16,737 nt of DNA from Escherichia coli (GTDB lineage Bacteria > Pseudomonadota > Gammaproteobacteria > Enterobacterales > Enterobacteriaceae). Below are positions 15,056 through 15,089 of this stretch, one piece after another. The position numbers and the translations under genes were made by a program. The DNA is taken from assembly GCF_003334385.1 (NCBI RefSeq), contig NZ_QOWN01000064.1; one strand, given 5' to 3'. The notes under the pieces are model-generated. The model had not been told where the DNA came from and did no database searches. It saw only the letters and a list, made by a program, of their open reading frames with translations. Each line of letters begins with the position of its first letter. Position 1 is the stretch's first letter.

Positions 15056-15089
15056 AAAACCCCGCTTGCAGCCAACAAACGGGGTTTTT
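15056..15089. terminator. GC-stem hairpin flanked by A-tract and T-tract (bidirectional intrinsic terminator-like element)
   Basis: AAAACCCCG...CGGGGTTTTT: stem CCCCG (15060-15064) / CGGGG (15080-15084) with extra inner pairs, A4 upstream and T5 downstream on the plus strand. Lies between the endolysin stop (15179) and the 60-aa gene. Confidence 0.45.

What the first reader, a model, noticed from the sequence alone, without database searches (positions are those of the whole stretch)
15056..15089. Bidirectional terminator-like hairpin separating the endolysin from the downstream small-protein genes and Rz
A GC stem flanked by A4 and T5 sits inside what should be one late lysis transcript. It has the form of an intrinsic terminator on the plus strand (T-run after the stem) and a weaker one on the minus strand, suggesting the small-protein/Rz segment may be transcriptionally insulated or that an unannotated plus-strand transcript ends here.
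Basis: partly seen in the sequence, partly recalled or inferred. Interest (0 to 1): 0.35.

Follow-up and report, generated by a model that had tools for sequence, protein, structure and literature searches.

The report
Terminator-like hairpin after phage endolysin
A stable RNA hairpin with A- and U-rich flanks lies just after the endolysin gene of a lambda-like E. coli prophage; it looks like an ordinary, previously unannotated transcription-terminator or RNA-end element that the phage's antitermination system must read through, not a new kind of regulator.

Summary
The hairpin at 15056-15089 is real and non-random. The late genes (holin, SAR endolysin R, two small membrane-protein genes, Rz/Rz1, terminase) are on the minus strand, so the minus strand is the sense strand.

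On minus-strand RNA the stem has 14 bp, two of them G·U. It is among the five most stable local hairpins in the window. On plus-strand RNA those pairs become A·C mismatches and the fold is unremarkable, although the T-run is better there.

The hairpin ends a conserved 90-nt 3' UTR of R. The same segment occurs in 2020 of 5426 complete E. coli genomes. It is the last conserved element before a variable cargo (small membrane ORFs). K-12 Qin has no such insert because R overlaps Rz. 933W-type phages carry only a weak hairpin here.

The next gene's ribosome-binding site starts about 25 nt downstream and no promoter lies between. Downstream late genes therefore depend on read-through, presumably by Q-modified polymerase.

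The most likely role is an intrinsic-terminator-type insulator or 3'-end barrier that closes the holin-endolysin module. A plus-strand antisense RNA or a 3'-UTR-derived sRNA is not excluded. No published 3'-end or sRNA data were found for this site. It is ordinary and of low interest.

The parts
15056..15089 (-). Terminator-like hairpin (type A). On minus-strand RNA the 5' arm is 15088-15075, the loop UGGCU is 15074-15070 and the 3' arm is 15069-15056. It has 14 bp including two G·U pairs.
   Evidence: It is paired in 96.3% of cells across 25 distinct relatives.
15047..15059 (-). U-rich tract on the sense strand (UUUUGUGUUUCUG). Its first four U also pair with the A-tract.
   Evidence: Tail score 4.05. 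Sequence homology between relatives with different cargo breaks about 10 nt after the stem.
15085..15099 (+). T-rich tract on the plus strand (TTTTTACTTTTATTC). It is the complement of the conserved A-rich end of the R 3' UTR.
   Evidence: Tail score 4.49. It is conserved because it is part of the UTR.
15090..15178 (-). Conserved 3' untranslated region of the endolysin gene. It has an invariant core (15116-15137, GGAUAACACGAAAUCCUGCGAA), a variable stretch and an A-rich end.
   Evidence: Nucleotide diversity is 0.046-0.059 in the conserved parts against 0.134 at third codon positions of R. The region is absent from K-12 Qin.
15179..15712 (-). SAR-type endolysin gene R (177 aa).
   Evidence: phrog_7 endolysin, E 1.9e-62. 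Annotated as lysozyme R in relatives.
15029..15045 (-). Second small stem-loop (CCUUG-GAUAAGG-CAAGG) whose 3' arm overlaps the Shine-Dalgarno of the next ORF.
   Evidence: Folds. The stem is invariant and only the loop varies among relatives.
14840..15022 (-). Small ORF of 60 aa with a C-terminal membrane helix. Its ATG is at 15022-15020, preceded by AAGGGAG.
   Evidence: phrog_1115, E 1.4e-42, unknown function. No Pfam or NCBIfam match.
14694..14825 (-). Small ORF of 43 aa with a single membrane helix. Its ATG is at 14825-14823, preceded by GGGAGG.
   Evidence: phrog_4906, E 2.1e-23, unknown function.
14224..14697 (-). Rz i-spanin gene, with the embedded Rz1 o-spanin gene (14286-14471).
   Evidence: phrog_13 Rz-like spanin, E 7.6e-73.

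Best explanation
The hairpin is an intrinsic-terminator-type element that closes the holin-endolysin module of a Q-antiterminated lambdoid late operon. It acts mainly in the sense (minus-strand) RNA.

Shown:
- It is a strong, conserved hairpin with a U-rich tail.
- It sits at the end of a conserved 90-nt 3' UTR of R.
- It is the last conserved element before a variable cargo of small membrane-protein genes.
- There is no room for a promoter before the next gene.

Inferred:
- Polymerase that has not been modified by Q (read-through from moron or spurious promoters in the lysogen) terminates here, from either direction. This keeps Rz, the small proteins and the packaging genes silent and shields R from antisense transcripts.
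- During lytic growth the Q-modified polymerase started at pR' reads through.
- In the read-through transcript the folded hairpin still acts as a barrier to 3'-exonucleases, so the holin-endolysin part of the message outlasts the downstream part.
For: - Stability and rank of the minus-strand hairpin.
- Only the minus-strand version passes the consensus terminator scan.
- Terminator d-score is +18.9 on the sense strand and +0.2 on the antisense strand.
- Two G·U pairs make the stem strand-specific: 96.3% of cells are paired on the sense strand against 84.2% on the antisense strand.
- Diversity in the hairpin is 0.047 against 0.134 at synonymous-type sites of R, and variation is confined to the loop.
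- The same hairpin precedes at least four different cargo types, and homology breaks just after the tail.
- A variant, type C, keeps the outer stem (AAAACCCCG...CGGGGTT) but has a different, still self-complementary inner stem.
- The UTR, hairpin and cargo are an insert relative to K-12 Qin, where R and Rz overlap.
- Related prophages carry a Q antiterminator upstream of the same lysis cassette. Q-dependent read-through of late-operon terminators is established for Stx phages (PMC7547250).
- The window holds other sense-strand terminator-like hairpins that late transcription must also pass, for example 16100-16135 inside an ORF.
Against: - No 3'-end, Term-seq or Hfq data for this site were found.
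- There is no double-sided compensatory change within type A.
- Single transitions in the stem favour the sense strand and the antisense strand about equally (my reading of the variants listed).
- The sense U-tract is interrupted.
- 933W-type phages, which are most of the sequenced Stx phages, have only a weak hairpin with a negative d-score on both strands at this position. A strong terminator after R is therefore not required.
- In type C the better T-tail is on the antisense strand.
- No upstream minus-strand promoter whose read-through would need blocking was detected.
Confidence: 0.5

Rival explanations
1. The hairpin is the plus-strand terminator of a short antisense RNA. A transcript would start near 15022, from the promoter-like TAGTCA-18-TATACT at 14986-15015 inside the 60-aa ORF, and end at the T-run around 15090-15095, giving about 70 nt. 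That RNA is complementary to the leader, Shine-Dalgarno and start codon of the small membrane-protein gene and would repress it, in the manner of P22 sar RNA or type I antitoxin RNAs.
For: - The plus strand has the better T-run, with tail score 4.49.
- The 86-nt plus-strand RNA folds into two stem-loops plus a U-tail at -20.3 kcal/mol, z = -3.5.
- A promoter-like site lies 39-40 nt upstream of the hairpin.
- The target is a small hydrophobic protein.
- In type C the antisense orientation scores better as a terminator, at +13.5.
- Phage antisense RNAs of this size are known, for example sar at 68-69 nt (review PMC12197685).
Against: - The promoter match is only 9 of 12 with an 18-nt spacer, and such matches are fewer than expected by chance in the window (4 found against 11.2 expected).
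- The promoter lies in one cargo type only. The H-19B and L007 cargo types have a weaker, mutually homologous TAAAAT match, and type C and type B have none.
- The plus-strand stem is weak, at -9.2 kcal/mol for the core and in the top 2.6% of windows.
- The two-stem fold simply mirrors the sense-strand structure.
- This site is not among the Hfq-bound prophage sRNAs listed for Sakai.
Confidence: 0.12
2. The conserved 3' UTR of R together with the hairpin is a 3'-UTR-derived small RNA of up to about 125 nt, possibly processed shorter. It would be released from the late or read-through transcript by termination or RNase E cleavage. The invariant core (GGAUAACACGAAAUCCUGCGAA) or the A-rich stretch would serve as the seed or Hfq site.
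For: - The conserved UTR segments have about one third of the diversity seen at third codon positions of R.
- The core is invariant across the variants.
- The layout is a terminator hairpin with a U-tail preceded by an A-rich stretch.
- Prophage late regions of EHEC and EPEC are rich in sRNAs (PMC4104026; bioRxiv 10.64898/2026.05.13.724894).
Against: - No Rfam family matches at the gathering threshold, and the weak hits are terminator look-alikes.
- No EcOnc Hfq peak maps to an R 3' UTR among those checked in Sakai. That screen excluded sense peaks within 100 bp of a CDS, so the absence is weak evidence.
- No promoter was found in the UTR.
- 933W-type phages keep the UTR core but lack a good terminator.
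- There is no covariation in the UTR folds.
Confidence: 0.13
3. The hairpin has no present function. It is a leftover carried along at a recombination junction between the endolysin module and the cargo, for example the former terminator of an acquired cassette. It looks conserved only because the whole segment spread recently.
For: - It sits exactly at a mosaic junction.
- 933W-type phages do without it.
- There is no compensatory change within type A.
- The sequences are closely related, with R proteins 94-99% identical.
Against: - Diversity in the stem is about one third of that at synonymous-type sites of the adjacent gene, and variation is concentrated in the loop.
- The same hairpin is kept with at least four different cargoes.
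- Type C keeps the pairing with a different inner stem.
Confidence: 0.2

Closest known systems
Intrinsic (Rho-independent) terminators inside Q-antiterminated late operons of lambdoid phages, such as tR' and the terminators that flank morons
   Same: A GC-rich stem-loop followed by a U-rich tract, lying in a late operon that must be read through by Q-modified polymerase. It sits at a mosaic junction between genes that are adjacent in other phages.
   Different: It is not at the end of a transcription unit, because the next gene's ribosome-binding site follows within about 25 nt. It precedes the inserted cargo instead of following it, and no cargo promoter is visible. Its activity has not been measured.
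Bidirectional terminators with an A-tract and a U-tract, typical between convergent genes
   Same: A4 upstream and T5 downstream of a palindromic GC stem, so both strands have a hairpin followed by a U-run.
   Different: The genes on both sides run in the same direction in every context examined. The two G·U pairs make the stem clearly asymmetric in strength.
Intercistronic stabiliser hairpins that block 3'-exonucleases and set unequal expression within an operon (REP-type and puf-type elements)
   Same: A stable hairpin between cistrons of one operon, downstream of genes needed in larger amounts.
   Different: It has no sequence relation to REP elements, it has a terminator-like U-tract, and no decay data exist.
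P22 sar RNA and type I antitoxin RNAs (Sok-like)
   Same: A possible antisense RNA of about 70 nt covering the ribosome-binding site of a small gene and ending at a hairpin in the intercistronic region. The target would be a small hydrophobic protein.
   Different: The antisense promoter is only a weak consensus match and is not conserved across cargo types. There is no sequence or Rfam similarity, and no toxicity data exist.

Membership tests
Intrinsic (Rho-independent) terminator | GC-rich stem-loop of about 5-14 bp with a short loop | tested here: met
   The minus strand has 14 bp (6 G-C, 2 G·U) and a 5-nt loop, with a GC-core energy of -16.1 kcal/mol. The plus strand has 9+3 bp around a mismatch, with a core energy of -9.2 kcal/mol.
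Intrinsic (Rho-independent) terminator | U-rich tract immediately 3' of the stem | tested here: met
   The minus strand has UUUUGUGUUUCUG (score 4.05) and the plus strand has UUUUUACUUUUAUUC (score 4.49).
Intrinsic (Rho-independent) terminator | RNA 3' ends and a drop in transcription at the site | not testable with these tools
   No expression data are available. No paper or table found covers this site.
Intrinsic (Rho-independent) terminator | Lies at the end of a transcription unit | tested here: not met
   The next ORF's Shine-Dalgarno starts about 25 nt downstream on the same strand. No promoter-like site lies between, or anywhere on the minus strand of the window. Essential late genes follow.
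Bidirectional terminator | A-tract 5' and U-tract 3' of a symmetric stem | tested here: met
   AAAA at 15056-59 and TTTTT at 15085-89. The stem is not symmetric in strength.
Bidirectional terminator | Serves convergent transcription units | tested here: not met
   All annotated neighbours run in the same direction in the window and in nine related loci.
Moron (promoter + gene + terminator inserted between genes that are adjacent elsewhere) | Inserted between genes that are adjacent in other phages | tested here: met
   In K-12 Qin rrrQ overlaps rzpQ. Homology to the window ends about 10 nt after the R stop codon.
Moron (promoter + gene + terminator inserted between genes that are adjacent elsewhere) | Own sigma-70 promoter upstream and terminator downstream of the cargo gene | tested here: not met
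   The hairpin is upstream of the cargo, and no promoter-like site was found on the minus strand.
3'-UTR-derived Hfq-dependent sRNA | Conserved seed plus a shared mRNA terminator with a U-tail | tested here: inconclusive
   The UTR core is conserved, with diversity 0.046-0.059 against 0.134 at third codon positions of R, and the hairpin is present. There is no covariation, and the core is also kept in 933W-type phages, which lack a good terminator.
3'-UTR-derived Hfq-dependent sRNA | A detected stable RNA, Hfq binding, or a curated family | tested here: not met
   No Rfam match at the gathering threshold. The site is not among the 63 Hfq peaks of Sakai that I could place. That screen would have missed sense-strand peaks close to a CDS.
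Antisense RNA / type I toxin-antitoxin (sar-like, Sok-like) | Antisense promoter within or near the target's 5' end | tested here: inconclusive
   TAGTCA-18-TATACT matches 9 of 12 at 14986-15015. It is present only with this cargo type. Other cargoes have weaker matches or none.
Antisense RNA / type I toxin-antitoxin (sar-like, Sok-like) | Small hydrophobic toxic protein as the target | not testable with these tools
   The 60-aa and 43-aa ORFs each have one predicted membrane helix and belong to PHROGs of unknown function. Their toxicity is unknown.

The most novel reading that the evidence does not exclude
The hairpin may be the shared 3' end of a regulatory RNA rather than a mere punctuation mark. 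One option is a sense 3'-UTR-derived sRNA carrying the invariant GGAUAACACGAAAUCCUGCGAA core, made in 2020 of 5426 complete E. coli genomes. The other is a roughly 70-nt plus-strand antisense RNA that holds down translation of a small membrane peptide placed between the SAR endolysin and the spanins. That would add an RNA layer to the timing of lysis.
Probability: 0.2. Interest if true: 0.55.

Novelty: new member of a known kind. Interest (0 to 1): 0.17.

Why it matters
The direct importance is small. The result adds an unannotated terminator or RNA-end element to the map of a very common prophage lysis cassette. It also corrects the strand assignment made from sequence alone.

It is useful for annotation and for design:
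- It marks a recurrent insertion point between R and Rz where lambdoid phages swap small membrane-protein genes or an antirepressor.
- It predicts that leaky transcription in lysogens stops after the endolysin gene.

If the conserved 3' UTR plus hairpin turned out to be an sRNA, it would be one of the most widespread prophage RNAs in E. coli.

Tried and rejected
- **Rfam.** Nothing passed the gathering threshold over the whole window. At a permissive E-value around the site only terminator look-alikes appeared: rimP leader at 27.5 bits against a threshold of 47, BTnc005 and RefA9. All were rejected.
- **Known prophage sRNAs.** AgvB, AsxR and PasA/C/D lie upstream of the holin, not here. HnrS (EcOnc10-12) lies between Rz and the next gene on the opposite strand. 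The window has a copy at about 13847-13896, but it is not this hairpin. EcOnc32 and EcOnc33 were checked and map elsewhere.
- **UTR as a degraded Rz start.** Rejected, because homology to K-12 rrrQ/rzpQ ends about 10 nt after the R stop codon.
- **Convergent gene downstream that would explain the two-way shape.** None was found in nine related contexts.
- **Covariation test within type A.** There were no double-sided changes. The sequences are too similar to be informative.
- **Counting single transitions as strand evidence.** They were about equal for the two strands, so uninformative.
- **Conserved antisense promoter across cargo types.** Not supported.
- **Literature.** Searches by topic and by exact sequence strings found nothing on this site. 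The 933W genome paper could not be retrieved.
- **Naming the small ORFs.** NCBIfam and Pfam gave no family.

Full report
**What is in the window**

ORF listing and family searches show that the late genes of a lambdoid, Stx-phage-like prophage lie on the minus strand:
- the holin C-terminus (16588-16725)
- a DUF1327-type gene (16032-16583)
- the SAR endolysin R (15179-15712)
- a 60-aa ORF (14840-15022) and a 43-aa ORF (14694-14825), each with a good Shine-Dalgarno and one membrane helix
- Rz and Rz1 (14224-14697 and 14286-14471)
- Nu1 and terminase A

Close relatives are annotated the same way, including Escherichia phage PhiR12_1 at 97.5% identity and Stx1 and Stx2 phages. The sense strand for the finding is therefore the minus strand.

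**Checking the observation**

The sequence at 15056-15089 is AAAA-CCCCG-CTTGCAGCCAACAAA-CGGGG-TTTTT on the plus strand.

As minus-strand RNA it forms a 14-bp stem with loop UGGCU, followed by UUUUGUGUUUCUG.
- In context it folds at -24.5 kcal/mol, z = -4.19, with 0 of 200 shuffles as stable.
- A scan of all 36-nt windows on both strands puts it in the top 0.05%, among the five best hairpins of the window.

Two of the pairs are G·U, which become A·C mismatches on the other strand.
- The plus-strand RNA therefore forms only 9+3 pairs.
- It folds at -14.6 kcal/mol with z = -1.88, which is the top 2.6% of windows.
- The consensus terminator scan lists only the minus-strand version.

A d'Aubenton-Carafa-style score gives +18.9 for the sense strand and +0.2 for the antisense strand, computed with modern energies and so uncalibrated. 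The plus strand does have the slightly better T-tail, at 4.49 against 4.05.

**Context in relatives**

The 191-bp segment around the hairpin occurs in 2020 of 5426 complete E. coli genomes, at a median of two places per genome. I collected about 200 loci from IMG/VR and from annotated phages and genomes.

All relatives have a conserved 90-nt untranslated region after the R stop codon, with an invariant core GGAUAACACGAAAUCCUGCGAA and an A-rich end.

After it come three alternatives:
- **Type A** is the hairpin of this window. It has loop variants and is followed by at least four different cargoes of small single-helix ORFs.
- **Type C** has the same outer stem, AAAACCCCG...CGGGGUU, but a different, still self-complementary inner stem.
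- **Type B** is found in 933W, P13374 and Sakai Sp6/Sp10. The conserved sequence stops at GUGAAUAAAGU and the leader of an antirepressor gene follows. It carries only a weak hairpin: z is about -1.1 and the terminator score is negative on both strands.

In K-12 Qin, R and Rz overlap by 4 nt and homology to the window ends about 10 nt after the stop codon. The UTR, hairpin and cargo are therefore an insert at the R/Rz junction.

**Is the hairpin under selection?**

Among 47 distinct type A sequences, nucleotide diversity is:

| Region | Diversity |
|---|---|
| Third codon positions of R | 0.134 |
| Conserved UTR segments | 0.046-0.059 |
| Hairpin (variation almost all in the loop) | 0.047 |
| Beyond the U-tail | 0.43 |

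The hairpin is the last conserved element before the variable cargo.

Within type A, 96.3% of pair cells are standard pairs on the sense strand, against 43-63% when the partners are slid by one to three columns, and 84.2% on the antisense strand. There is no double-sided compensatory change. Single transitions in the stem favour each strand about equally. Covariation therefore does not decide the strand.

The evidence for selection on the structure comes from three things: the low diversity, persistence with different cargoes, and the replacement of the inner stem in type C.

**How it most likely works**

No promoter-like site exists on the minus strand of the window. The Shine-Dalgarno of the 60-aa ORF begins about 25 nt after the hairpin. 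It is partly sequestered in a second small stem-loop at 15029-15045. The small ORFs, Rz/Rz1 and the packaging genes therefore depend on transcription that passes through the hairpin.

In this phage group late transcription starts at pR' and is made terminator-resistant by Q. Q genes lie upstream of the same cassette in Sakai prophages, and the mechanism is summarised in PMC7547250.

I infer three things:
- The hairpin stops only unmodified polymerase, coming from either direction.
- It is read through in lytic growth.
- It then still protects the 3' side of the S-R message from exonucleases.

The window contains other sense-strand terminator-like hairpins that must be read through in the same way. 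These steps are inference, and I found no 3'-end data. 933W-type phages lack a good terminator here, so the element is not essential.

**Rivals**

- **Plus-strand antisense RNA.** An RNA of about 70 nt from a TAGTCA-18-TATACT match (14986-15015), ending at the T-run, would cover the ribosome-binding site of the 60-aa ORF. The promoter match is weak, such matches are below chance frequency in the window, and it is cargo-specific.
- **3'-UTR-derived sRNA.** This is suggested by the conserved UTR. However, nothing matches in Rfam, and none of the Hfq peaks of Sakai that I could place maps here.
- **Functionless leftover at a recombination junction.** This fits its absence from 933W-type phages but not the reduced diversity.

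**Comparison and verdict**

The element has the shape of an intrinsic terminator. It fails the criterion of ending a transcription unit. It has the flanks of a bidirectional terminator but no convergent genes. It sits at a moron-type insertion point but on the wrong side of the cargo and without a promoter.

It is best filed as an unannotated instance of a known kind: an internal terminator or stabiliser hairpin in an antiterminated late operon. Searches by topic and by exact sequence found no earlier description.

Interest is low. The modest upside is the possibility of a regulatory RNA at a very widespread locus.

Noticed in passing
window 13770-13960 (+), Hfq-peak equivalent about 13847-13896: This stretch is 94% identical to the Sakai Sp10 region that encodes EcOnc11, also called HnrS. 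HnrS is a 66-nt Hfq-dependent sRNA reported to repress hha (bioRxiv 10.1101/2025.11.27.690950). It lies between Rz and Nu1 on the strand opposite to the late genes. Rfam has no family for it and reported nothing here.
   Followed up: partly
window 14694-15022 (-), and loci L007-L206 downstream of R: The interval between the R hairpin and Rz holds a highly variable set of small single-helix ORFs of unknown function. They include 60 aa (phrog_1115), 43 aa (phrog_4906), about 45 aa (xDFSKLIRE...WKF...) and 28 aa (MSAELIRAMAFAIR...). In 933W-type phages the interval holds an antirepressor instead. This is a recurrent cargo site inside the lysis cassette.
   Followed up: partly
window 16103-16143 (+), same hairpin on (-) at 16100-16135: A strong plus-strand intrinsic terminator (AAAACGCCGCGA...TCGCGGCG followed by T7) lies 16-20 nt after the stop codon of the plus-strand DUF1823-type gene (15825-16084). 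It is embedded in the coding sequence of the minus-strand DUF1327-type gene. Late transcription has to read through it too.
   Followed up: partly
window 15090-15178 (-), core 15116-15137: The 3' UTR of the endolysin gene is more conserved than third codon positions of the gene (diversity 0.046-0.059 against 0.134). It has an invariant 22-nt core next to a hypervariable 20-nt stretch. No function is known.
   Followed up: partly
window 15029-15045 (-): The small stem-loop CCUUG-GAUAAGG-CAAGG occludes part of the Shine-Dalgarno of the 60-aa ORF. Its stem is invariant and its loop varies among relatives. The H-19B-type cargo has an analogous stem that pairs the terminator's U-tail with its own Shine-Dalgarno.
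   Followed up: partly
window 13559-13582 (both strands): Another two-way terminator-like hairpin (AAAACCGGTCATGTCCGGTTTT) lies between the HnrS-like region and the start of Nu1.
   Followed up: no
whole window: Terminator-like sites are about twice as frequent as in shuffled sequence (36 against 16.3, sd 4.2). Sigma-70 promoter-like sites are fewer than expected (4 against 11.2, sd 3.5), and all four are on the plus strand.
   Followed up: no
window 15760-15795 (-): A stable hairpin (-20 kcal/mol, UACCCUGGCCAGUG...CACUGGCGGGGUG) lies in the leader upstream of the endolysin start codon, in the gap between the divergent DUF1823-type gene and R.
   Followed up: no
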